Of a stretch of 64,000 nucleotides of DNA, positions 95 to 50,420 are shown in pieces (position 1 is the first letter of the stretch; each line of letters opens with the position of its first letter). The DNA lies in NCBI RefSeq assembly GCF_009914755.1, contig NC_060926.1; one strand, given 5' to 3'. The notes below the pieces were generated by a model that saw only the letters and a program-made list of their open reading frames with translations, did not search any database and had not been told where the DNA came from. A program made the translations under genes and the position numbers. The stretch is from the human T2T-CHM13v2.0 reference genome, Homo sapiens.

Positions 95-285
95 CTTATT
101 TCACTTCTCTTGGTTATGTATGTAGGAGTGGGATGGCTGAGTCATGCAGTAGGTATATGTTTAACTTTTGAACAAACTCACAAATAGTTTTCCAAAGTAG
201 CTGTCCCATTTTACATCCCTTCCAGCAATCTATGAGAGTACTAGTTGTTCCACCTATTTGCAATACTTGGTATTGTAAATCTTTT
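95..285 (-). mobile_element. Old L1 (L1M) fragment, 3' region
   Basis: 'taggagtgggatggctgagtcatg...ttttccaaagtagctgtcccattttacatcccttccagcaat' resembles the antisense L1 ORF2-end consensus; boundaries approximate. Confidence 0.75.
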
Positions 286-987: not shown

Positions 988-1292
988 GGCTGGGTGTGGT
1001 GGCTCATGCCTGTAATCCCAATACTTTGGGAGGCTGGGGCGGGAGGATTGCTTGAGGCCAGGAGTTGGAGACCAGCCTGGGAAAAAGGGAGATCCTATCT
1101 CTACAAAAAATTTAAAATTAGCCTGGTATGGTGGCACACACTTGTGATTTCAGCTACACGGGAGGCTGAGGCAGGAGGATTGCTTAAGTCCAGAAGTTTG
1201 AGGGTGCAGTGAGCTGTGACTGCACCACTGCACTCCAGCCTGAATGAGACACAGCAAGAGACCTGACCCTGTCTCAAAAAAAAAAAAAAAAA
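988..1292 (+). mobile_element. Full-length AluJ-type SINE
   Basis: Dimeric Alu with J-type 'ggaggattgcttgaggccaggagtt', poly(A) tail, TSD agtgtcgcaga (977-987) / agtgtcacaga (1294-1304). Confidence 0.95.
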
Positions 1293-5933: not shown

Positions 5934-6260
<327 letters not shown>

Positions 6261-6499
6261 AAGAGTTCAGTTTTAGATGGCAGCCTGGCCCCTGCAAGAG
6301 CTGACGGTCAATGCAGTCACTGCGCTGTAGGTCTCAGTTTCCTTAGCTTTAAAATGGCGGTAAGAGAACAGAGGCTTCATGGGGAAGATGGAAATGGGCT
6401 TTGAAGGATGGGAAGGAAGAGGAAGGAGCACCTTCCAGAGCAAAGCAGAAGCAAAGATTCAGAGGGGAGAGTGGACGGCGACTGTTTTCAGGTATGAAG

Positions 6500-6675: not shown

Positions 6676-9419
6676 CAGGTTTGTGTAGTATTTATTCACT
6701 TATTCATTTATTTAATAACAGCCTTTGGCTATTCATTTTAATTCCCTTGAGCAACACAAGATGGCGTTCGCTCAAGCATGCGACTCCCAGACGCTCATCC
6801 AGAGGTCTTCAGGGAGGGAGATCCCTGGGACTTGCAAACTCCAGCTCCTCACACAAGATGCTGTTGGTGTCTGCAAGGCTCCCCTGATACCTTGAATTCT
6901 TCTCAGGTGGTGGGGGAGGTTTTCTCTTCCTCTGGGGCAAAGAGGGATGCAGGCAGGGGTGGGAATTCAGCTCCAGGGCAGAGGGTGTCCATCTCTAAGT
7001 CCTGCCTCAGTCCCAGCTTCCTAGCCCCCTGTGTCCATGACCACAGCCTGGTAGAGAAGGGGTCCCATAGGAGGCCAATCTCTCTGGCCACCCCAGCCTG
7101 TCCCAGGGACCAGAGACCCCACAAGTCTTTGATGCTGGGGGCAGTCTGAGGAGAAAAGGGTGAGGTGGTGGAGAGGGGGCATGCGTGGCCAAGGATTGCA
7201 GCTCCAAGTGAGAAATAAGCAGGAGCAGATGGAGCCCAGAGCACAAAGTTCCTGTTTTCACGCAAATGTCTGGGACAATAAAAGTCAGGGGGGAAGACGG
7301 GGGTGGGGTTGGAGGGGAGCATAGAACCAGGGGTGGGGGTGCAGAAAGAAGATGCCATGTCAGCAGAATTAGCTCTTATTAAAATAGTTTCCGTCGAATT
7401 GGTTGGGGATGGGGGTGGACTTTCCAGCCCCCTGCCCAGAGCCCTTGGCTGGCCTGCTAGGGACTGGCCCAGCCTGAGAAGGACGGGGAGGGCTCTGGGC
7501 CTGTGCCTGCTGGGGACGACCAGACAGCGAGTGCTCCTCAGAGCTGATTGCATTTCCTGGCCTTTGATGCCCAAGATCAAAGCAGGGCCAGGCCATCCTG
7601 GCCTCCAGGCCTCCTGGCAGCCTCTCTGCCTGCAGGGTCCAGGCTGTGTGGTCATGGTGGCTGGAGAGGGCAAGGCAGCCTGGCATCCCTGGTAGGCCCA
7701 GAGCAAGAGCAAGCTAGAGGACCAGGATGTGGGCTGCGGGGGGCTGCAGCCGTGGATATAGCCCATATCTGCTGTCCACGCATGCCTGTGCTTATCATGC
7801 TGGTTCTGTGTCCTCAGATGAGATGTTAAACGTGGAGGTCACTAATGCCCAGGTCGTGGGAACTTGGGAGTTGGGTTCCATATGGCCCAGATCAACTGTT
7901 ACATGAGCCATGCCTTGGATCCTGCAGCCTGTGGAGATGGCTGGGGGGTCCATCTTGCTATAGCAAGAAAGAGCTGTAACACTGCTGTGCAAGCTGGCCT
8001 TTCATGGGATCCTGGCTGGGAGGGCTTCAGGGGTGGTTTGGACAAGGGTCTCCATACACAGACCTTCCTCCCAAGGGTCCCCTAGCTCCCCTTGCTGGCC
8101 CAAAGGGCTCCATCCTGGGGCATTTCTAGTACCTTCCTTTTATTTGCACCAGCCTGGGCCCCCTTTGGGGAACTAGCCCTGGGGGTTGCTCAATGATGAG
8201 AGGACAGCTGCTTAGGGTCCTGCTCCTAGTGTACAGGGAGGCAGATAAGCCCCTCTTGATGCACTGCAGCGATCTGCAGGAGTTGGTCCCCAACTCCCGG
8301 GCAGGTTTCCTGGACGTCTTTGCCTGTTATGCCCTTGTGAGGGCTTCAGGTTCAGACGGCTGCCTCAGCTCAGGCCAGACTCCTTGCCTGGCTTCTTCCA
8401 CCCAGGTGTCCATCGGGTGGTGCTGACTCAGTTTCCCTTTGATGTGAAGCATGCAAGGGGATACCAGGCAGAGGCTAGCCTGGGGTAGGAGTTGGGCAGT
8501 GTGGAGGCTGTGTAAAAAATGCTGGGGAGGCAGAGGCTTCTACAATCACATACCTGCAGGGCCTGGGGGCAGGGTCCTCCCCGTGCAGTGGCGTTGGTGT
8601 TCCTGCAGGCCTGCGTGTTGCAGCGGGGCCCTGGCGGCTCCAGTGCCCACCCATGTGGAGAGGATTAGGGCCTGGAAAGATACATTTTCCCCTCTTCCTT
8701 CTTGGAAAGAGGATCAAGGGGACCTGGTGACAGCCCAGAGATTCTGGGCGTGTGAACAGCCCCACTTCCGTCCATTTCCCAGGCAGCCTGAGAGATGCAC
8801 ACCATCTGCCCCAGTGCCGAGCCTGGAGCCCCCAGCCCACCCAGAAAAGGAGGCACCAGTCGCCTGCTCTTCCATCCTTGGAGGCCCTGCCCTAAAGGGG
8901 GAGCAGAGAAAGTGGACTGGGGGCTTCGTGGAAATAAGGCAGCCGCTGGTGATTGATACCTCCTGGGTTATCTGGAGTGGTTACTCTTAACTCACTGGTT
9001 GTTCTTGTATTCTCAGGATGTAATTACATTGTGACTTCCTGGGATAGGAGCCCTGATCGCACCCCTACAAGGTTTCTATAGTCTGGGCTTGGTCTTCAGC
9101 CAGCCCCTGCCACTGATTTCTTGGGACCTCTGTTGGGCCTTCCAGAGTTTGAGGCTGAGCACAGAAATAACTGTTTCAGTCTGAGCCATGCCCTTGTGAG
9201 CAGGAGTAGCAGTGAAGTGGGTGGGAGCATGGTTTAGGTGGCTAGGAAAGACCCAGGGCTCAGGCACCAAGCAGAATTAGGACTGGGGCAGGGATTTTTA
9301 ACCTGGGAATACGTGCATGGCTAGCCCCTTCCCCACTGCCAGACCTTATTCTCCCTGCTCTGTGTGATGTGTGTGTGAGTTTGCTTGGGCACACACGCAA
9401 GAATGAAATGACACTGGTC

Positions 9420-10137: not shown

Positions 10138-11949
10138 TGTGGGGATTACGTGCTTGCGTATGTGGGCTCACAAATGGAAGGCTTGGCTGGGAAACCCAAG
10201 TCTCCCTGTCCCAGGCCTCAACCCTTGCTCCCTGGGGCCCTGATGGAGGAGAACAGAGAGTCCCCAACTCTCGCTATCTGGGACAGCGGCTTCTGTTGGA
10301 TTCCCCCCCACCCCTTTCTTTCTTGACACAAATAGCCTGTGGAACAAAGGGAACTGGGGATTTGGATTATTTACACAGTCAACATTAAGCAAGTTGTGGT
10401 CTATTTAAATTCTTCTTTATTAGGCTGGGAAATTCCATGGCAAACACTCAGACAGTAAGGAAACCTCCAACGCAGCAGCTCCCAGCTCCTGCCATTGCTG
10501 TGGTTCCCCATCTCCTCTCCCCTGCTCCCACCTCTCTGACCCCTGCTTCCTCCATTCAAGCTCCCTGATATCATGCCAACCCCCTCCACCTGACACAAGC
10601 CCTCCAGATTCCCCCTCCATGCCTCCCATCCATTGGCCCAAATTTCCTTTCTTCCATCTCCCTTCCCTCTGCCTCCATTTCTCAAACCTCCACCCCTGCC
10701 TCCCACCTTGCTTCTTCTTCCTAGACTTGGGAGGGACAGCTGGAAGCCCAGCCCCACACCCAGCATCCAGTCTACAGGCACAGTGTGCAGAGAGAGGGAA
10801 AAAAAGCAAGGCCCGTGAAAGCATGGGAGGAGGCAGGTGGTGGCCATCCCAGTGCAATTCATCAATGTGCCTGGGAGGCTGAGCCTCTCTGCAGCTGACT
10901 CTGTGAGACAGTTTGAGTGGGGAAAGAAAGGGTCCTATCTACAGGTAGAGCCACAGGGGTGCTCCATGTCTCCGGTAAATTCAACATAGTGACAGAGTGA
11001 GACAAGTCGAGGGATCTGATGCTTATGCTAAAGACAGGGGCCTCTGCTGTCACCCAGGCTGACACTCAGGAGCTCTGTGATCTGGGGCTACAGCAGATGA
11101 TTTGTCTGGGCCAGAGTGAAGGAGACGCCAAGCATTAGGTTTCAGGGCAGTGAGAAGTCCTGGGTGGAGGTGAGGGGGAAGTTGGGCAGAAGAATGGGAG
11201 GCCCCTGAGGCTGCAGGGCCAGAGTGGGGAGGGGCAAGCCACTTGGGAAGGGGTCTGCTGGGTAACCTGGTCCTGAGGTAGCTGCAGCCATGTTAGCTGT
11301 GTTCTTCAAGACTTTTTCTATGAGGCCTTAGAACCCAGGCCTGGGACTCGAGTCTGGAGGATTCAAGGAGGCTGATGCTCCCCCGTATAGGGCAGGGAAT
11401 CACTTCTGCTCCTTCAAAGCTGTCAAAAAGTGGCTTCTGGATGTCTCCAGAGGCAGAGGTTTGCACCACTGAAATGCCCCAGCAGAAGCTGGGCCTTCCC
11501 AGAGGGGCTCCTGGTGCGGGTGCAAGGGGCCCTTCAGATCCCTCCCCATGGAGCCAGGCAGGCCTGGGGCAGAGGAGGCGCTGAGCATGGGGAAGCTCAG
11601 AGGACTGCGAACTTCCTTCAGAGGGGACCCCCTCCGGACCAAGGGTCTACAGGGTTGGTCTCTTCTCCCTTGGGAAGGGCTCTCCATCATGTCCCTGGGG
11701 ATGGGCCATACCCTTTCTTTAGCCCTGAGGGCTTTTCCAGAGGAAGACATCATCAGGGGCAGAAGGGAAGCTTGAAAAAAGATGAGAGAAGGGGGTGCTG
11801 GGAAGGTGGGGGGTGGGAGAGTATGGATTGAGAACCAACAGAGAGCATCCAGTGGACAGCCCAGCCTCCCATTCTTGAGCAGGGGCCCCTCTGCAAGCCC
11901 TCAGCTCCAGAGTGCTCTCCTGTCACTGTACTCACCTCTTTTGAAATAG

Positions 11950-12075
11950 CTCTTTTCTTGTTTTTCTCTGCAACTAGACTGTGAGCCTCCTGAGAGTAGA
12001 GAATACAAAGAATTTGCTTTGTAACCCAGTGCCCGGAGTGTGGGTAACAGCAGGAGCTTGTTCAGTGCTAAATGA
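11950..12075 (+). mobile_element. L2 3' end fragment
   Basis: 'actagactgtgagcctcctgagagtagag...tttgtaacccagtgcc' typical L2 tail. Confidence 0.7.
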
Positions 12076-12195
12076 GCTCAACAGAACTGCATTTTCAGGG
12101 GTGCTGGCTGAGCCCAACCCTCACCTTTCTCCCGTAAGCTCAGCTGTTACTTGCATGCCAGGCACTAGTCTTGGTTTTTCTGAAGCCACAGTTTG

Positions 12196-12583
12196 CATGA
12201 CAGGGTGGACAGACCCTGGAAAGCCAGAAAGTGATGCTCTCTGCTTTGGGAGTCTGTCCTGAGCCCTTCCCTGGTCTCGGCCTGCTCTGCCCTTGTCTGG
12301 TGACCAGTGGCACATGTGCCAAGGTCTGGGCCTCTATCACCCACTCTGAAGGGGACACATTTGAGAAGCTGAACAGATTCTGCTTGGTGGGCAGTGACTA
12401 AGTCTTGAGCTGCCCCAGACAAGCTGGGGGACATCTGCCCCACCCCAGGAGAAAAACTCCTGAGGCTGTGCCCTCCAGGAGGAACCCCCTGGGTGTAAGG
12501 GTATTTGTGGCAGCCCAGGGGACTGGGGTGAGAAGCAGGTGGCAAGGCCAGGCAGCTGGTTCACACCTGTGGCAGGAAGTCAC
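12196..12583 (+). repeat. Long inverted repeat, left arm (not recognised as a transposon)
   Basis: Reverse complement of 13092-13471 aligns end to end; by-hand count ~50 substitutions plus a 7-nt and a few 1-nt indels (~85%). Confidence 0.97.
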
Positions 12584-13091
12584 TGCCACACACCTTTCTC
12601 AGAGGGAGAGCCTGTGCCCATGTGCTGAAACCTTTAGGAGAGGGAGCCCACTGAGGGCTGGGAGGCTCATCTCAGAAATCTCCTGCTGGCAGGCTGTGCT
12701 GGGGGAAGGGAGACAGGCCCCAAGGGTTTTGGAAGCACAGTTACCTGAGAAGGGGACTCCACAGGTAAAGGTCACTACACCCTGTAGTCCCTTGCTTTAG
12801 CTATTGTTTAAACTGATGTTAGCATTATTGACGAACAGCGCACAAATCCCCCTCCAGGCAGGCAGGGCTCAGGAGAGAAACTGCCCTTCCAGATTGCAAT
12901 GTGACAACCTCCTTCTCCAAACAGCAGCACAGCCTGCAGCGGAGAGGGCCTGAGAGCTGGCTGCCCATTATCACCTCGGTGCCGGCCCTGCCCTCTGGGC
13001 CTGTCCCTGCTGCCACCTCTGGGCCTGTGTTTCTGATTAGCGGCCCCAGCTGCGCAGCATTAGTTGCATTTTTCCAGGATGAATCTTGGTT

Positions 13092-13471
13092 GTGACTTCC
13101 TGCCACAGGTCTGAACCAGCTGCCTGCCTTTGCCGCCTGCTTCTCACCCCAGTCCCCTGGACTACCCTAAACGCCCTTACTCCCAGGGGGCTCGTCCTCG
13201 AGGGCCAGCATCAGGAATTTGCCTCCTGGGATAGGGCAGAAATCCCCTAGCTTGCCTGGGGCAGCTCAGGGCTCAGCCACTGCTCACCAAGCAGAATCTG
13301 TTCAGCTTCTTGGATGAGTCCCCTTCAGAGTGAGTGATAGGGACCCAGACCTTGGCACACGTGCCACTGGGCAAGGGCAGAGCAGGCCAAGGCCATGGAG
13401 AGGCTGCAGGTAGGCTCCCAAAGCAGACAGCATCACCTTCTGGCTTTCCAGGGTCTGTCCACCCCGTCATG
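13092..13471 (-). repeat. Long inverted repeat, right arm
   Basis: Pairs with 12196-12583; ORF track shows the same peptides on opposite strands (MTGWTDPGKPE[S/G]DA[L/V]CFGSL; QTLAHVPL). Confidence 0.97.
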
Positions 13472-13669
13472 GTCTTGGTTAGCATGAAGTCATGGTCTCC
13501 AGCTAAGGCTGCACAAACCCCGTTCTTTTCCAGAGCTCTTCTGGAAAGCTAAGTGAAGCTATCAATAGAGTCAGCATTCACCTGAGAGGTAGTGAGCTCC
13601 CCGTCCTGCAGGTCTGTGAATAAAATCTTTCACATTCATAGTGGCCTTTAAATCTTTTGTGATCCTTAC

Positions 13670-13790
13670 TATGTCCCTGTAAGTGGGTACGGCAGGGGTG
13701 AGCTTGACAATTTTTGGAGGAGAAAACTAAGGCTGGAGTGAATGTGTGCTGGAGTCTAGGCTAGAACCCAGATGTGAAGCCTACTTAGTC
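13670..13790 (-). mobile_element. Degenerate MIR
   Basis: 'ccctgtaagtggg...gaggagaaaactaaggct...ggctagaacccag'. Confidence 0.55.
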
Positions 13791-14074
13791 CACTGTGAGT
13801 TTGATTCAATATCCCTTCTCTCTGAACCCAAGCAGATTCCAAGAGACTAAGACCCCAGACCCCAACCTGGCAGCTGGTGCATGCTCTTTCCTCTTTCCCT
13901 GCCTACCAGCTCCCTGGCCAGCACCCCCGAACAATCTGACAGCCTATCCCAGGCCGGCTTGATTCTGACTGTTTGTCACTTTCCTGCCTCAACATCCTGC
14001 CCTGGGCCTCAGCCTTTGGTCTATGCTAGGGTCTGTGATCTGGGATGGGCCTCTGAAAATCAAAGCCCTAAGAG

Positions 14075-14180
14075 GACTCACAAGACTGTGAGCAACCTGA
14101 GTATGGGGCCCATAGAGGGTAGCTGGCTTCTGTGTCCCCAGTGCCCAGGGCAGGCCTGGCATAGAAGAGAACTCAGGCAA
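14075..14180 (+). mobile_element. L2 3' end fragment
   Basis: 'agactgtgagcaacctgag...ctgtgtccccagtgcccagggcaggcctggcatag'. Confidence 0.7.
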
Positions 14181-16849
14181 GAGAGTGGGACCAGCGGCTG
14201 GAAGAAATCAAGCAGGGAGTGCCATGGAGAAGCGGCTGCAGTTGGCTTTGGGGACTCCATGTGGTCAGGGAGGCTCGCTTGCTCTGGAAAGTAGGTGGAG
14301 GCTGGAGGCCAGTACTCCCTGGGGAGAGGGTGCCTGTGTAACAGGAGCATCTGGCCCTTGAAAATGCTGAGCAGAGAAATGCTAGCAGTAGCGCCAGGTG
14401 CCAGCACTCAGGGTGGGATAGAGTTCTATTGTGGCCATAGAGTCCTGCCATGGGTAGAGCTTGCTGAGGGGGGACCAGATGCTGTTGGGACCCTGGGGCT
14501 GCCATCGACTGCCTTTAGCCTGTGCTGCTGCAGGGATGCAGTGTTTCTACCCCATAACCCATCTCAAAACCCCAGTCAGCAACCGGGCTCCTGAGAGGTG
14601 GGCACATCAGCTCTCTCAAGTGCCCCGGGAGAGTTTCCTGGCCTAAGATGGTGAGTGGCATGGGGCAGGGAACAGAGACTCTGCTGGGGAAGCCTCTGTC
14701 CCAGCGGGGAGATGCTGTCCCTGTCTTCAGAGAGGCCACTCTTTGGTTTATGATGTATTGACATATCATAACCCCTGGACTCCTTTGCCCAGGAATTAAT
14801 GATTGTATTTCTATAATTCTTCAGTTATTTTAGGAAAATGTGAGCTGTTTCTTTAATTATCTACAAGGACTTGCCAACAGCTATTATACATTTGGCTAGA
14901 TTGAGACTATGAATGAAACTTGTATTTGTCCCTAAAAGTCTCGGTTGGTTTTAGCCTTCACTGTCCCCTGGATGGCTGGTGGTGGAGTGCGACGTGTGCG
15001 GTCAGCTAATGGGGACACAGTGCTGATTTGCTTGGGCTGTGTCAACAGGATCTTGGAGCTGGGAGGACCCATGACAACTTTTTACATGATGAAGAAATTC
15101 CCCTGTTGGAAGACAACCCTTCCAGCCTCCATCGCATACCTGCTGTGATAGGGAGCTCACTGCCTGCTACTTGATCATAGGTTCTGTCACCTGCTCTAGG
15201 GCCACAGGTCAGGCCAGGGGTCACTGCAGGCTCTCTTCCAGAGGCAGCTCTCCCAGGGTCCCCCTGGTGGTCACTATGAAGCTGTGCGGCTCTCCTGGAG
15301 GGTTCCCTTGCAGCCCTCAAGTGGACAAAGGGCTCATCTTTCCTTGCCAGGGGCTCCCTTGTAAAGGCCCTTTGGCCAGCAAAGGCCCCTGGGTTAGAGT
15401 TTCCTTGTGCCGCCCACCAGGCAGAAGGTCAAAGGTCTTGGCCAAGGCCCACTGTCCTCTCCCTGCAGTGACCTTCTTTGAGCACCTCTTCCTGAACATT
15501 CTCACGCCACCCTGCCAAGTCCTGGCACATACAGGACCAGACAGTAGAGTTCAGGCTGTCCCTGAGACTGCTGAAATGCCCCTTCTCCTTCACCAAGGAC
15601 CAGGGGAGAAAAAGGGACCATGGACTGGAGACAGACAGCGGGAAGGGCGGGGAGCCAGGCGATGTCATCAATGCCTGCTGTCAGGCTGGGGCCCTGCTGT
15701 CATCTAACCTGCCCGGGGCTGATGTGTCCTGGTCACTGTTAGTCCATGGGAGAAGGACCCTTATCATGGCTGGGAGACCAGGAGAAGGGGTGCAGCTCCC
15801 CTTGTGTCTTGGATTAGAACATGATTGCCAATAGGTGGCCCCAGTGGTGATGAGGGCTGTGAAGGAGGGTCCTCCATCTTTCCTGCCACCAGCCGCACCA
15901 CCATGGCTACCTTCACCGCCTTTCCAGCCAAAGCCTTTCAAAGCCATGTCTTGGTGGGTAGAACTGGATGGGGCTCTAGGCTGTGACTTTAAATGAGAAT
16001 CACTAAACTGTTGGAGATAATGGAAGGGAAGTGAGGGGCCAGTGGGGACAGGCCAGCCCTTGGGTCCATGAGACCAGTGCACTGTAGCCAAGAGTCTGAA
16101 GCCTGGCCCACATCCTCAGCCCTGGGAACATAGGAATGGCCTCAAGACCCCTGCTCAAGTCCTATGTTCTCTCCCACCAGGGACAACTGGCCATGTGGGC
16201 TTGTCTCATGGCCCCTGCATGTAATAGCTCCATTCAGTTTGGGCTTTTCATTCTTAAGTAGCACCACAGTGGGAAGTCTCTGGGCCTGTCCAGCTACTTT
16301 ACACGGCCTCCCCCAGCTGGAGTTGAAACCTATGCCTCCAAGTCCTTCCTGCACCCCTTGGGGTTTCCTCTTCAGCCCTCTAGCAAATAACTATTCCAAC
16401 AAAAACCTTCACAGCTCCCCAAGAACTTGCCATAATTTATAGGCACAAGGCAGTCCAAATCCATATGGAGAAAAGTAACATTCCTCCCCAAGAAGCAGCC
16501 CAGCCAGCCGAGAGTGGGAGAGAGAGAGAGAGACTGCTAAAAGATATACCTGTGTATTAAAAGAACTGGGGACTGAGGACTGGGGACAGACAATGGGAAG
16601 GCAGGAAGTGAGGCAATGTCACCTCACAGCTTTTAGTCCAAGGGTGACCAGCTGCCTTCAAAGGATGCCTTGGGACAAAATATGGCTGCCAGGTTTCATT
16701 TGTCCAAATGGTGGTTTTCCTAGAACAAAGGGACTTTTTTTTTTTTCTCAAAGGTAAATTAAAGCTACTTCTTTTAGGGAAGCCCAGAAAGATTTGAATT
16801 TTTAAGTGAGTTCGTCCAGCCTCTGCCCTGTTATGCAATTGAACTTGTA

Positions 16850-23739: not shown

Positions 23740-24295
23740 GGATGCTGATGAAGGGTGGTAGCAATGGGTGTTGATACTAGCAATGGTACTGATGATAATA
23801 GTCATGATGATGGTGATGGCAATGTATAATGATGCTTGTGAAGGTGGTGGTGATGGTGATCCTAGTGATGATTGGTGATAACAATGGTGATGATGTTTGT
23901 GAAGGAGATGGTGACTATATGATGATTATGGTGTTGATATTACTAGTGGTGAGGGGGCAATGATAGAAGATGGTGATCATGGTGGCAATGATTGTGGTGA
24001 TGTTAATACACTTGATCTTAGCCAACAGGCTGAGAAGCAATGTAGTTATCTTAATAGTAGTGATTATAAGTGGGGATGATTGTGGTGGTGGTGGTGATGA
24101 CTCTCAATGATGGTGATGGTGATGGTGATCATGGTGGAGATAATGGAGATAGTGATAAAGATGGCAGTGATGATGAGAGTGATGATGCTTATTGAATGGT
24201 GGCAATGTTGGTAATGGTTGTGAAGACTATAGTTATGGTGGTAATGATGGTGGTGATGAAGATGATGGTTTTAATGGCAGTAAGTTGATGATGCT
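23740..24295 (+). repeat. Degenerate (GAT/GGT)n trinucleotide array
   Basis: Long run of tgatgg/tggtga/tgataa units. Confidence 0.9.
24007..24041 (-). pseudogene. 3'-truncated U2 snRNA retrocopy (U2 nt 1-35)
   Basis: Reverse complement ATTGCTTCTCAGCCTGTTGGCTAAGATCAAGTGTA vs U2 5' end ATCGCTTCTCGGCCTTTTGGCTAAGATCAAGTGTA (32/35); degenerate TSD 23994-24008 / 24042-24056. Confidence 0.92.
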
Positions 24296-37341: not shown

Positions 37342-37717
37342 TGTATTAGTCCATTCTCATGCTACTAATAAAGACATACCCGAGACCGGGTAATTTATAA
37401 AGGAAAGAGGTTTAATTGACTCGCAGTTCAGCACGGCTAGGGAGGCCTCGGGAAATTTACAATCATAGCAGAAGGGGAAGCAAACATGTCCTTCTTCACA
37501 TGGTGGCAGCAAGGAGAAGGGTCAAGCAAAAGGGGAAAAAGCCCCTTACAAAACCATCAGATCTCCTGAGAATTCACTCATTATCATGAGAACAGCATGG
37601 AGGTAACCACCCCCATGATTCAGTTACCTCCTACCAGGTCCCTCCCACAACACATGGGGATTGTGAGAACTACAATTCAAGATGAGATTTGGGTGGAGAC
37701 ATAGCCAAATCATATCA
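37342..37717 (-). mobile_element. THE1 (THE1B/C-like) solo LTR
   Basis: 'tgtattagtccattctcatgct...gagatttgggtggagacatagccaaatcatatca'; perfect 5-bp TSD GTATA (37337-37341 / 37718-37722). Confidence 0.95.
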
Positions 37718-37907
37718 GTATATAATAAACATTTCATTTCAAGGCAGTGCCAGATGAATAGTTTATGCAAAAAAGAAATGGAGTTGGGACTAATAACTAT
37801 CCTTTAAAAAAATAAAATTCCTTTCTCACATCCTACACAAAATATTAATTCCATATAGTTTAAAGATTTATAGAGCAAACTGTATAAAATTAGAATAAAA
37901 TATAAGC

Positions 37908-40170
37908 ATTTAAAAATAGCTTTATTGAGATATAATTCACATACCATCCAAGTCACACATTTAAAGTGTACTATTCAATGGCTTTTAGTATATTCGCTGT
38001 TATACAACCACCACCACAATTGGTTTTAGAACATTTCCATCACTCCCCTGAAAAAATCATTTTCCCCCCACATTACTTCTCTAGCCCCAGGCAATCATTA
38101 GTCTACTTTCCTGCTCATAGATTTGCCTATTCTGGACATTTCATACAAATGAAAACATATATGTGGTATTTTTGTGATTGGCTTGTTTCATTTATCATAA
38201 TGTTCTCTAGGTTCATCCATGTTGTAGCATATCTCAGTACTCCTGTTTATTGCCAAATTGTGTTTCATTATATGGATACACCACATTTTATTTATTTATT
38301 CATTAGTGTAAGGAATTTGAGGGTTGTGTCCATTTTTTTGGTTATTAAGAATATTGCTGTTATGAACATTTGTGTACAATATTTGTGTGTGTTCACGTGA
38401 AGATTTGGTTTTATTTCTCTTGGGGATTTATGTAGGAGTGGAATTGCTGGGTCCTATGGTAACTCTATGTTTATTCTTTTAAGAAATTGCTAGACTCTTC
38501 CCAAAATGGCTGTACTGTTTTGCAGCAGTGTATAAAGGTTCCAATTTCGCTACTTGTTATTATATAACCTATTTTTACAAGTAAAATTTATTTTTATTTT
38601 TTACAGGTTTTATTTTGTTTCTAATTAACACATAAGAGTTGTACATATTTATGTGGTACAGTGTGATATTTTGATACATACATTGTGTAGTGATCAAATC
38701 AGGGTAATTAGCATATCTAGCATCTCAAACATTTGTCATTTCTTTGTGGTGAGATCATTCAAAATCCTCTCTTCTAGCTATTTTGAAGTATACAGTACAT
38801 TACTATTCACTATAGTCACCCTACTATGCAATAGAATACCAGAACTTATTTCTCCTATCTAATCACAACTTTAAACCTGTTGGCCAACCTCTCCCCATTA
38901 TCTTCTCTCCACTACTCTCTCCTCAGCCTCTGGTAACCACTATTCTACTCTCTACTTCTGTAAGATCAGCTTTTTAAGATTTCACATATGAGGGAGATCA
39001 TGCAGTATTTGGCCTTCTGTGCTTAGCCTATTTCCCTGAACATGATGTCGTTCAGGTCCATCCATGTGGTCCCAAATGACTGGATTTCATTCTTTTTATG
39101 GCTGAATAGTATCCCATTGTATATGGACATCGTGTTTTCTTTATCCATTCATCCATTGATGGACACTTAGGTTGATTCCATATCTTGGCTATTGTGAATA
39201 GTGCTGCAATGAATACAGGAGTGCAGATATCTCTTCAGCATACTTATTTCATTTCCCTTGAATATATACCCAGTAGTGGGATTGCTGGATCATATCATAG
39301 TTCCATTTTTAATTTTTTGAGGACTGTTATCCATAATGACTGTACTAACTTACATTTCCACAGACAGTGTACAAGGTTTTCCCTTTAACCACATCCTTGC
39401 CAACATCTATCATTCTGTCTTTTTGATAAAAGCCATTCTAACTGGGATAAGATGGTATCTCATGGTGGTTTTGATTCACATTTCTTTGGTGATTAGTAAT
39501 GTTGAGTATTTTTCCATATACCTTCTAGGCATTTGTATATCTTCTTTTGAGAAATGTCTATTCAAATCACTTGCCCATTTTAAAATCATATTATTTGTTG
39601 TTTTTTTTTTTTGCTATTGCGTTCTTTGAGTTTCTTACATATTCTGGATATTAACTCCTTGTGAGATGCATAGTTTGCAAATATTTTTCCCATTATGTAG
39701 ATTGTCTTTTCACTCTGTTGATAGTTTCTTTTGCTATGCAGCTTTTTAGTTTGATGCAATTCCATTTGTCTATTTTTGCTTTTGTTGCCTGTGCTTTAGA
39801 GATCTTAGTTTAAAAAGTCCTTGCCCAGACGAATGTCATGCGGTACTTTTCTTCTGTTTTCTTCTAGTAGCTTCAGTTACAGGTCTCACATTTAAGTCTT
39901 TAATCTGTTTTGAGTTGATTTTTGCAAGTGGTGAGAGATAAGGTTCTAGTTTCATTCTTCTGCATAAGGATATCCAGTTTTCCCAGCACCATTCATTGAA
40001 GATGCTGTTATCTGACCTTTTGATTATAGTCATCTTCATGGGTGTGTAGAGGTATTTCCTTGCTGTTTTGATTTACATTTCCCTGATGGATAATGATGTT
40101 GAGCATCTTTTCATATAAGTATTGGCCATTTGCATATTTGCTCTGGAGAAATATTTATTTTATCCTTTGA
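37908..40170 (-). mobile_element. L1MB-like 3' portion, split by an L1MA insertion
   Basis: 'gctttattgagatataattcacatacc' 3' terminus; resumes at ~40003 'tgacctttgattatagtcatc'-like sequence. Confidence 0.8.
38585..40002 (-). mobile_element. L1MA-type 5'-truncated element (~1.4 kb)
   Basis: 'tgtacatatttatgtggtaca...gatcaaatcagggtaattagcatatc' 3' UTR; ORF2 remnant [24 protein letters not shown] (39836-40039, - strand). Confidence 0.9.
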
Positions 40171-50044: not shown

Positions 50045-50420
50045 GTGTCACCATCATTACCGCCATCTCCACCATCATCATACTATAACCACCTTAACCA
50101 TCATCATTACCATCATCATCACCGTATCATCGCCATTCCTCCCATAATCACCACTATCACCTAACCACATCATCACCACTACCATGACCACTATTATTGC
50201 CATCAACACTACCACCACCAGCAGGATCATCACCATCATCACCACCACCATTACCACCATCATCACCATTACCATTGCCATTTCCACCACCATCACCACC
50301 AATATTATCATCACTATTTCCATCATCATCATCATCATCACCACCACCATCACCATCATGACCACTACCATTATCATCAGCCACCAGTACTATCACCATT
50401 ATTACCACCATTATCATTAT
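50045..50420 (+). repeat. Degenerate (CAT/CAC)n trinucleotide array
   Basis: Long accatc/atcacc run; source of the M/V-, D/G- and T/I-rich spurious ORFs. Confidence 0.92.

What the first reader, a model, noticed from the sequence alone, without database searches (positions are those of the whole stretch)
12196..13471. ~385-bp inverted repeat, apparently not transposon-derived, enclosing a 508-bp spacer: possible invertible cassette or long dsRNA hairpin
Seen: 12196-12583 and the reverse complement of 13092-13471 align end to end at ~85% (by hand, ~50 substitutions plus small indels). Perfect blocks include gggtggacagaccctggaaagccagaa (27 nt), agaagctgaacagattctgcttggtg (26 nt), ccaggggactggggtgagaagcagg (25 nt) and the inner terminus acctgtggcaggaagtcac (19 nt). 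The arms resemble no Alu, L1, LTR or MITE I recognise. Both termini are better matched than the middle. Transitions split about evenly between those giving G-U pairs on + (~16) and on - (~19), so there is no strand-specific sign of RNA-structure selection. Known: closely spaced inverted repeats can drive spacer inversion and arm-to-arm gene conversion, and when transcribed form ADAR/Dicer substrates. Inference: this may be an old fold-back duplication kept similar by gene conversion, acting as a flippable DNA module or a ~380-bp non-Alu dsRNA stem.
Basis: partly seen in the sequence, partly recalled or inferred. Interest (0 to 1): 0.8.

Follow-up and report, generated by a model that had tools for sequence, protein, structure and literature searches.

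The report
Old local inverted duplication, decaying neutrally
A 380-base stretch of unique human DNA was long ago copied backwards and inserted about 500 bases downstream, and the two copies have since drifted apart like ordinary unconstrained DNA, so this looks like a mutational relic and not a working switch or RNA hairpin.

Summary
The inverted repeat is real. 12196-12588 pairs with the reverse complement of 13087-13471 at 85-87% identity (49 substitutions, 5 indels, BLAST E 9e-108), around a spacer of about 500 bp. Each arm finds only itself and its partner in the whole T2T genome. A control repeat of similar divergence gives 9042 candidates, so the arms are not two copies of an interspersed family of that age.

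New here: the right arm is bracketed by a direct repeat of TCTTGGTT (13084-13091 and 13473-13480). About 1 in 10,000 pseudo-inserts show this by chance. An older paralogous stretch at 12138-12216 shows the same site uninterrupted. The right arm is therefore an inserted inverted copy of the left arm with a target-site-like duplication. It has no poly(A), no terminal inverted repeats and no second copy elsewhere.

The divergence looks neutral. K2P is 0.142, no CpG is shared, mismatches are evenly spread, and G-U-compatible transitions split 16 to 19 between the strands. The longest uninterrupted identity is 27 bp, far below what efficient homologous recombination needs.

There is no Rfam, tRNA or Pfam signal. 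Orthologues, haplotypes and RNA data could not be consulted, so function is unsupported but not excluded. Ordinary; low interest.

The parts
12196..12588 (+). Left arm, inferred to be the original (donor) copy
   Evidence: Inverted match to 13087-13471. The older direct similarity S/S' runs uninterrupted across its outer edge at 12195|12196, so this edge is not an insertion junction.
12589..13082 (.). Spacer of unique sequence between the arms
   Evidence: It finds only itself in the genome (1 candidate, 1 scored). It has only weak internal inverted similarity, 12639-12742 against 12996-12879 (score 22; 6 of 400 GC-matched real-sequence controls reach it).
13083..13091 (+). Upstream copy of the target-site-like direct repeat (ATCTTGGTT), abutting the inner end of the right arm
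   Evidence: Read. TCTTGGTT occurs 6 times in 64 kb on both strands, 3 of them at this locus.
13092..13471 (-). Right arm, inferred to be the inserted inverted copy of the left arm
   Evidence: Ends come from the local alignment. It is bracketed by the 8-mer direct repeat; 8 of 63,600 pseudo-inserts of 380 bp show such a repeat, this one included.
13472..13480 (+). Downstream copy of the direct repeat (GTCTTGGTT), directly after the outer end of the right arm
12138..12216 (+). S: an older paralogue of the insertion site. It is contiguous and holds one GTCTTGGTT at 12168-12176, 19 nt before the left arm.
   Evidence: 12138-12176 resembles 13052-13091 (score 15; 4 of 300 shuffles reach it) and 12168-12216 resembles 13472-13520 (score 17; 0 of 300 shuffles). 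Anchored and ungapped, 24 of 40 bases match after the 8-mer; 0 of 7622 local 40-mers reach that.
13481..13520 (+). Right half of S', the interrupted insertion-site sequence (its left half is 13052-13091)

Best explanation
This is a relic of one old, local, duplicative rearrangement. A stretch of about 380-390 bp of unique intergenic sequence (now 12196-12588) was copied in reverse orientation. The copy was inserted about 500 bp downstream, into a site whose 8-9 bp (TCTTGGTT) were duplicated on both sides of the insert.

Since then the two copies have diverged independently at about the neutral rate. They no longer share enough uninterrupted identity to recombine or convert efficiently.

Shown: the repeat, its uniqueness in the genome, the flanking direct repeat, the paralogous uninterrupted site, and the even, unbiased substitution pattern.

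Inferred: the direction (left arm is the donor); an age older than the split of apes and Old World monkeys from New World monkeys; and the way it was made. I put about 55% on capture of a copy at a staggered double-strand break whose overhangs were filled in, and about 45% on a replicative template switch that returned 9 nt upstream of where it left.

I expect no present function beyond possibly adding a duplicated set of binding sites to a regulatory neighbourhood.
For: Repeat.

Unique in the T2T genome: the left arm gives 2 candidates, 2 scored, namely itself and its partner at 85%. The right arm gives the same at E up to 10. The spacer finds only itself. An nhmmer profile of both arms finds nothing else in the window below E 0.16. 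As a positive control, the repeat at 37449-37742 gives 9042 candidates, with the 40 scored at 86-100%.

Insertion signature: TCTTGGTT lies at 13084-13091 and 13473-13480. The background rate is 8 of 63,600 pseudo-inserts. The paralogous stretch S carries the same site contiguous with one copy.

Neutral decay: K2P is 0.142 with a transition-to-transversion ratio of 35:14. Eight of the 35 transitions are in CpG context. CpG counts are 1 and 6 with none shared. Dispersion index is 0.70 (p 0.57) and the longest-run test gives p 0.66. The G-U split is 16 to 19 (p 0.74).

Age: the per-arm distance is 7.1% (5.8% without CpG-context transitions). The hominoid branch since the ancestor shared with New World monkeys is 4.23% (10.1101/036434, passages).

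No known RNA, tRNA or protein signal: Rfam gives 3 weak hits at E 0.26-0.95, none inside the repeat. ARAGORN finds 0 genes. Zero of 6 ORF translations match Pfam.
Against: No orthologous sequence, haplotype or expression data could be consulted, so neutrality rests on one pairwise comparison.

The two ends are nominally better matched than the middle (75/80 against 253/300, p 0.028 post hoc).

Both the donor edge (12196) and the insertion site (13091|13092) fall inside paralogous stretches of about 80 nt, 19 nt out of register. The model does not explain this.

The own-genome search is blind to very old repeats: the stretch 11950-12110, which by recall looks like an old SINE, found only itself. 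The arms may therefore contain ancient repeat-derived sequence.

A template switch with the return point upstream of the departure point was not seen among 794 short human-chimpanzee events (PMC5453318, passages). For the break-capture route no enzyme or source of the copy is identified.
Confidence: 0.7

Rival explanations
1. The duplication is much older than the divergence suggests. The arms have been held at about 87% by past arm-to-arm gene conversion or by purifying selection on both copies, for example as paired regulatory sequence around the spacer.
For: The ends are nominally better matched than the middle. The locus lies next to RefSeq-listed enhancers (hub annotation: 8092-9079 and 11063-11674). 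The region is GC-rich, 0.57-0.59.
Against: There are no conversion-like tracts (dispersion p 0.57, longest-run p 0.66) and no shared CpG. Identity is 85-87%, and the longest uninterrupted identical run is 27 bp. The requirements read in print are about 92% overall and 200-500 bp uninterrupted (PMC3966225; PMC2583991). The same review notes alpha-globin events with matching fragments under 50 bp between repeats 5 kb apart, so occasional exchange is not excluded.
Confidence: 0.1
2. The unit is transcribed and works as a long non-Alu hairpin (a substrate for editing or dicing), or it is a DNA segment that still flips between the arms.
For: If transcribed as one RNA, either strand is predicted to pair the arms end to end (MFE -891.7 kcal/mol for + and -918.8 for -). 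That follows from any inverted repeat, and no shuffle control is given above 1000 nt.
Against: No gene is annotated in the window (hub annotation). No Rfam family reaches its threshold. The 14 transversions and 5 indels break pairing on both strands, and wobble-compatible transitions show no strand preference (16 to 19, p 0.74). Uninterrupted identity is at most 27 bp. Hairpin extrusion in DNA is described as rare for inverted Alu pairs more than 100 bp apart (PMC3215922, passages), and the spacer here is about 500 bp. The arms (385-393 nt) fall under the 400-nt arm cut-off of LIRBase (PMC8728187, passages).
Confidence: 0.05
3. The whole unit (about 12177-13471) is a single-copy relic of a DNA transposon with long inverted ends, flanked by a 9-bp target-site duplication (GTCTTGGTT at 12168-12176 and 13472-13480).
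For: The two outer 9-mers are identical 9 of 9.
Against: The left 9-mer lies 19 nt outside the left arm, so the inverted ends would not be terminal. The third copy, abutting the inner end of the right arm (13084-13091), is left unexplained. So is the similarity of 12138-12176 to 13052-13091 and of 12177-12216 to 13481-13520. No other copy of arm or spacer is found in the genome, although a family of that age should have left some at detectable identity (control).
Confidence: 0.05
4. The arms are two independent insertions of one interspersed repeat family in opposite orientations.
For: This is the commonest origin of inverted pairs of 200-400 bp at 80-90% identity in the human genome (PMC11794170, passages).
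Against: Two copies at 87% mutual identity imply a family with many copies of similar divergence, yet each arm finds only its partner (2 candidates, 2 scored). A control repeat gives 9042 candidates. The left arm has no flanking direct repeat of its own (read).
Confidence: 0.02

Closest known systems
Intrachromosomal inverted repeat pairs of at least 200 bp and at least 80% identity, catalogued in GRCh37, GRCh38 and T2T-CHM13 (PMC11794170)
   Same: Size (385-393 bp) and identity (85-87%) meet that catalogue's stated cut-offs. It counts 627,791 inverted pairs in T2T-CHM13, with a median identity of about 84% (passages).
   Different: Pairs of this size and identity are mostly Alu and other interspersed repeats. 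This pair is unique sequence with its arms only about 500 bp apart. I could not confirm that the pair is listed: 0 occurrences in the 2 supplementary files held.
Template-switch mutations under the four-point model (Loytynoja and Goldman 2017, PMC5453318)
   Same: [quoted passage not shown] The candidate microhomology at the return junction is short (ATG, read).
   Different: The fragment is about 380 nt, where that model deals with short events. The order of switch points would be 3-2-4-1, with the return upstream of the departure, which duplicates 8-9 nt. Types in which point 4 precedes point 1 were not observed among 794 events (passages).
Insertions with target-site duplication made by L1 machinery (retrocopies)
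   Same: A discrete insert is bracketed by a short direct repeat of the target.
   Different: There is no A-rich tail at either end of the insert on either strand, and the target is not T/A-rich (read). The typical L1 target and tail are recalled, not taken from a call.
Long inverted repeats that give hairpin RNAs (LIRBase, PMC8728187)
   Same: Two long imperfect arms with a loop, predicted to fold end to end if transcribed.
   Different: The arms are shorter than that database's 400-nt cut-off. No transcript is annotated. The substitution pattern gives no sign of selection for pairing.

Membership tests
Pair of independent interspersed-repeat copies | Other copies of the same family elsewhere in the genome at comparable divergence | tested here: not met
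   Each arm finds only itself and its partner (2 candidates, 2 scored). The control repeat gives 9042 candidates at 86-90%. Very old families would be missed.
DNA transposon or MITE with terminal inverted repeats | Inverted repeats at the very termini, directly flanked by a target-site duplication | tested here: not met
   GTCTTGGTT abuts the right arm, but on the left it lies 19 nt outside the arm. The 8 bases flanking the two outer arm ends do not match each other (read).
DNA transposon or MITE with terminal inverted repeats | Multiple copies in the genome | tested here: not met
   no copy other than the locus itself.
L1-mediated retrocopy | Target-site duplication flanking the insert | tested here: met
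   TCTTGGTT at 13084-13091 and 13473-13480; 8 of 63,600 pseudo-inserts show this by chance.
L1-mediated retrocopy | A-rich tail at the 3' end of the insert | tested here: not met
   The insert ends read GTGACTTCC... and ...CCCCGTCATG on the + strand; neither strand has an A run at a junction.
Short-range template switch (four-point model) | Fragment 2->3 copied in reverse complement from nearby sequence | tested here: met
   13092-13471 is the reverse complement of 12196-12583 at 85-87%.
Short-range template switch (four-point model) | Switch-point order of an observed type (point 4 not before point 1) | tested here: not met
   The duplicated 8-9 nt require point 4 (13083) to lie before point 1 (13091). 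Such types were not observed among 794 events (PMC5453318).
Inversion by staggered breaks, with inverted duplications at both breakpoints | The second duplicated piece appears inverted next to the other arm | tested here: not met
   The bases after the left arm (12584-12592) match the reverse complement of the 9-mer at 3 of 9 positions, counted by eye. All three copies of the 8-mer lie on the + strand.
Recombination-competent inverted low-copy repeats (invertible segment) | A stretch of uninterrupted identity of the order of 200-500 bp, and overall identity of about 92% or more | tested here: not met
   The longest uninterrupted identity is 27 bp and overall identity 85-87%. Thresholds come from PMC2583991 and PMC3966225, with exceptions under 50 bp noted there.
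Recombination-competent inverted low-copy repeats (invertible segment) | Both spacer orientations found among haplotypes or species | not testable with these tools
   Only one human assembly is held, and no other vertebrate genome.
Hairpin-RNA locus | Transcription through both arms, and small RNAs or editing on the arms | not testable with these tools
   No expression data are available. No gene is annotated (hub annotation). Rfam has nothing on the arms.
Hairpin-RNA locus | Substitutions biased towards keeping pairs on the transcribed strand | tested here: not met
   G-U-compatible transitions split 16 on + and 19 on - (p 0.74). There are also 14 transversions and 5 indels.

The most novel reading that the evidence does not exclude
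The inverted copy was retained because the pair does something. One possibility is a non-Alu double-stranded RNA stem of about 380 bp made from an unannotated transcript. Another is a symmetric pair of regulatory blocks bracketing the 500-bp spacer in the DYSF-CYP26B1 gene desert, kept in all anthropoid primates. A milder version: it is a rare, large example of a template switch whose return point lies upstream of its departure, a class not seen among short events.
Probability: 0.05. Interest if true: 0.6.

Novelty: new member of a known kind. Interest (0 to 1): 0.18.

Why it matters
As it stands it matters little. Inverted pairs of this size and identity number in the hundreds of thousands in the human genome, and this one shows no sign of function.

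Its modest value is as a clean, datable example of how a non-transposon inverted duplication arises. The insert is bracketed by a duplicated 8-9 bp target, and a nearby paralogue preserves the uninterrupted site, so donor and copy can be told apart without an outgroup.

If primate orthologues confirm an empty site, the locus would document a large inverted duplicative insertion, either by break capture or by a template switch of a type not seen in surveys of short events.

Tried and rejected
- **Own-genome profile search with the two-arm DNA alignment:** not accepted by the tool. I searched with the right arm as single DNA instead.
- **Third, direct copy of the arm in the right flank:** a global alignment of 12168-12600 against 13472-13910 scored 6, and 110 of 400 random window segments score as high. 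Rejected.
- **Weak arm-like stretches:** 13960-14100 scored 21 against the left arm and 25 against the right arm (2 of 200 and 0 of 200 shuffles reach these). 11518-11648 scored 23 (1 of 200). The nhmmer arm profile does not confirm them; nothing else in the window falls below E 0.16. Left as unsupported.
- **Palindrome extending into the spacer:** score 22, reached by 0 of 300 shuffles but by 6 of 400 real GC-matched controls. Too weak to claim.
- **S and S' as tails of an old SINE (MIR, by recall):** the reverse complement of S resembles 12027-12059 (score 15; 3 of 400 controls reach it). The two halves of S' show nothing against the same stretches (244 of 400, 244 of 400, 23 of 400 and 74 of 400 controls reach their scores). 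No repeat library is on hand, so this is untested.
- **Target-site-like repeat around the left arm:** none at its ends. A 6-mer (GCCACA) lies a few bases off both ends (read) and is judged chance. One of the 8 background hits (GCCAGGCA at pseudo-insert 12165) lies at this locus but out of register with the arms; also judged chance.
- **Known signals:** Rfam at E up to 1 (3 hits, none on the repeat), ARAGORN (0 genes) and Pfam on 6 ORF translations (0 families).
- **Catalogue look-up:** a search for the pair's coordinates in the supplements of PMC11794170 gave 0 occurrences in the 2 files held.

Full report
**Observation**

The inverted repeat is in the sequence at the stated coordinates. The repeat finder returns three collinear ungapped inverted blocks that tile 12196-12588 against 13087-13471, at 82-87% complementarity.

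A gapped global alignment has 335 of 384 ungapped columns identical (87.2%), with 49 substitutions (35 transitions, 14 transversions) and 10 gap columns in 5 indels. MAFFT counts 331 matches, 54 mismatches and 8 gap columns in 393 columns. BLAST gives 84.8% over 394 columns with E 8.7e-108. The count of 16 against 19 G-U-compatible transitions is reproduced.

Across the whole window 7 inverted pairs of at least 60 nt were found. Three are blocks of this repeat. Three belong to one pair at 988-1242/6005-6247, which look like Alu by recall. One is low-complexity sequence.

**Copy number**

The window's own assembly (T2T-CHM13, 3.1 Gb) can be searched. The left arm finds 2 candidates, both scored: itself and the right arm at 85%. 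The right arm finds the same pair, even at E up to 10. The spacer finds only itself. An nhmmer profile of the two arms finds nothing else in the 64-kb window below E 0.16.

Two controls bound what this means. The masked repeat at 37449-37742 gives 9042 candidates; the 40 scored are the query itself at 100% and 39 copies at 86-90%. Families whose copies are as similar as the two arms are therefore readily seen. The stretch 11950-12110, which by recall looks like an old SINE tail, finds only itself, so families of much greater age are not seen.

Two independent copies at 87% mutual identity would imply a family of the first kind. That explanation is therefore rejected. Whether the duplicated stretch contains ancient repeat debris stays open, because no repeat library is on hand.

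**A target-site-like duplication around the right arm**

The 8-mer TCTTGGTT directly abuts the inner end of the right arm (13084-13091). It recurs one base after the outer end (13473-13480); as 9-mers the two read ATCTTGGTT and GTCTTGGTT. The 8-mer occurs 6 times in 64 kb on both strands, and three of these are at this locus, all on the + strand. Sliding a 380-bp pseudo-insert along the whole window, 8 of 63,600 positions have such a flanking 8-mer repeat within a slack of 0-2 nt, the real one included. The chance rate is therefore about 1 in 10,000.

The third copy (GTCTTGGTT, 12168-12176) lies 19 nt before the left arm. It turns out to sit in an older paralogue of the insertion site:
- 12138-12176 resembles 13052-13091 (score 15; 4 of 300 shuffles reach it).
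- 12168-12216 resembles 13472-13520 (score 17; 0 of 300 shuffles, but 6 of 400 real-sequence controls).
- Anchored on the 8-mer and ungapped, 24 of the next 40 bases match. None of 7622 local 40-mers reaches this for either sequence. Only 0.06% of 16,094 window position pairs that share an 8-mer reach it.

Sequence S (12138-12216) is thus contiguous, with one copy of the 8-mer. Its paralogue S' is split by the right arm, with the 8-mer on both sides. This is what an occupied site beside an empty-site paralogue looks like.

The S/S' similarity also runs unbroken across the outer edge of the left arm (12195|12196). That edge is native sequence and not a junction. I therefore infer that the left arm is the donor and the right arm the inserted copy.

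**How the copy was made**

This is inference. Several routes do not fit:
- **Retrotransposition:** the insert has no A-rich tail on either strand, and the target is not A/T-rich.
- **Transposition of the arm:** the arm has no terminal inverted repeats beyond 4-5 nt, the left arm has no flanking repeat, and no other copy exists.
- **Inversion with staggered breaks:** this would place the second duplicated piece inverted next to the left arm. The bases there match the reverse complement of the 9-mer at only 3 of 9 positions, counted by eye.

Two routes remain. The first is a staggered double-strand break whose 8-9 nt overhangs were filled in while a copy of nearby DNA was captured. The second is a replicative template switch that copied the left arm backwards and returned 9 nt upstream of where it left, with ATG as the possible microhomology at the return. 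In the four-point model this order would be 3-2-4-1. Loytynoja and Goldman report that types in which point 4 precedes point 1 were not seen among 794 human-chimpanzee events, because the return would need the new duplex to be reopened (PMC5453318, passages). That tilts me slightly towards break capture (about 55 to 45), but a break-induced form of replication is not bound by that argument.

One point is unexplained. The donor edge and the insertion site both fall inside the paralogous stretches, 19 nt out of register.

**Pattern of divergence**

The K2P distance between the arms is 0.142, or 0.116 without the 8 transitions in CpG context. CpG counts are 1 and 6, and no CpG is shared. Where one arm has CpG and the other TpG or CpA, the split is 1 to 3.

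Mismatches are spread evenly (index of dispersion 0.70, permutation p 0.57). The longest perfect run is not longer than expected (p 0.66). That test skipped gap columns and so counted a run of 28 nt; the true longest uninterrupted run is 27 nt. So there are no conversion-like tracts. The two terminal 40-nt windows are nominally better matched (75 of 80 against 253 of 300, Fisher p 0.028), but the windows were chosen after looking.

Transitions that would leave a G-U pair split 16 on + and 19 on - (p 0.74). The 14 transversions and 5 indels break pairing on both strands. Nothing here points to selection for a duplex.

**Age**

Per arm the distance is 7.1% (5.8% without CpG-context transitions). 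Moorjani and colleagues estimate 2.68% neutral substitutions per site on hominoid lineages since the ancestor shared with Old World monkeys. Since the ancestor shared with New World monkeys they estimate 4.23% (10.1101/036434, passages).

If the arms evolved neutrally and without conversion, the duplication predates the split from New World monkeys. Both arms should then be present in all anthropoid primates. The local rate in this GC-rich stretch (0.57-0.59) is unknown, so this is a rough bound.

**Function**

- **RNA families:** Rfam at E up to 1 gives three weak hits (E 0.26-0.95, far under their gathering scores), none inside 12196-13471.
- **tRNA:** ARAGORN finds no tRNA-like gene in 11500-14500.
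- **Protein:** stop-to-stop ORFs of 60-132 aa are unremarkable for GC-rich DNA. Six translations have no Pfam match at E up to 0.1.
- **Folding:** either strand, if made as one RNA, is predicted to pair the arms end to end (-891.7 and -918.8 kcal/mol). This follows from any inverted repeat, and no shuffle control is given above 1000 nt.
- **Flipping or conversion today:** the arms offer at most 27 bp of uninterrupted identity and 85-87% overall. Passages read give 134-232 bp in mouse cells, 300-500 bp in human meiosis and about 92% overall. They note exceptions below 50 bp between close repeats (PMC2583991; PMC3966225).
- **DNA hairpin:** extrusion is described as rare once inverted Alu pairs are more than 100 bp apart (PMC3215922, passages). 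The spacer here is about 500 bp.

**Comparison with what is known**

A catalogue of intrachromosomal repeats of at least 200 bp and at least 80% identity counts 627,791 inverted pairs in T2T-CHM13, with a median identity of about 84%. The 200-400 bp class is dominated by Alu (PMC11794170, passages). This pair meets those cut-offs, but I could not confirm that it is listed (0 occurrences in the 2 supplementary files held). LIRBase keeps only arms longer than 400 nt, so this pair falls just under (PMC8728187, passages).

A search listing also showed a preprint abstract stating that about 85% of human inversions under 2 kb arise by twin priming of L1 (10.1101/2021.12.20.472354, listing only). I saw nothing L1-like in the unit (no repeat library on hand), so that route was not pursued.

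**Verdict**

The feature is real. It is not a transposon pair. It is best read as an old inverted duplicative insertion that has since decayed neutrally.

They could not be tested against orthologues, haplotypes or RNA data, because no vertebrate genome other than this assembly, no repeat library and no expression data were available. The new details are the flanking duplication, the paralogous empty site and the inferred donor-to-copy direction. Interest is low.

Noticed in passing
window 12138-12216 versus 13052-13091 plus 13481-13520: An older direct paralogy of about 80 nt at roughly 65-70% identity spans the insertion site of the right arm. Both the donor edge and the insertion site fall inside these stretches, 19 nt out of register. 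This is not explained.
   Followed up: partly
window 11960-12110 and 14060-14210: Two stretches in the same orientation resemble each other (local score 21, null maximum 19, 0 of 400 controls). By recall they look like tails of an old SINE (MIR). The reverse complement of 12138-12170 also resembles 12027-12059 (3 of 400 controls). No repeat library was available to check.
   Followed up: partly
window 988-1249 and 5940-6267: A pair of Alu-like elements (by recall) lies in opposite orientation about 4.8-5.1 kb apart, at 76-87% complementarity. It is an ordinary inverted Alu pair and the only other sizeable inverted repeat in the window.
   Followed up: no
window 50168-50379: A degenerate run of 9- and 12-nt units rich in CAT/CAC (12 overlapping 92-nt copies at 64-74% identity). 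It also gives a weak inverted match to 24107-24175.
   Followed up: no
window 13466-13475 and 13489-13498: The 10-mer GTCATGGTCT occurs exactly twice in the window, 23 nt apart. One copy spans the junction between the right arm and the duplicated target; the other lies just downstream. It may bear on how the junction formed.
   Followed up: no
whole window: The stretches masked in NCBI's file cover only high-copy elements that look like Alu and L1 by recall, plus simple repeats. An unmasked stretch in this annotation therefore says little about old repeats.
   Followed up: partly
window 99-176, 38409-38486, 39247-39324: Three copies of a 78-nt stretch at 67-74% identity. Two lie within or beside masked stretches that look like L1 fragments by recall.
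   Followed up: no
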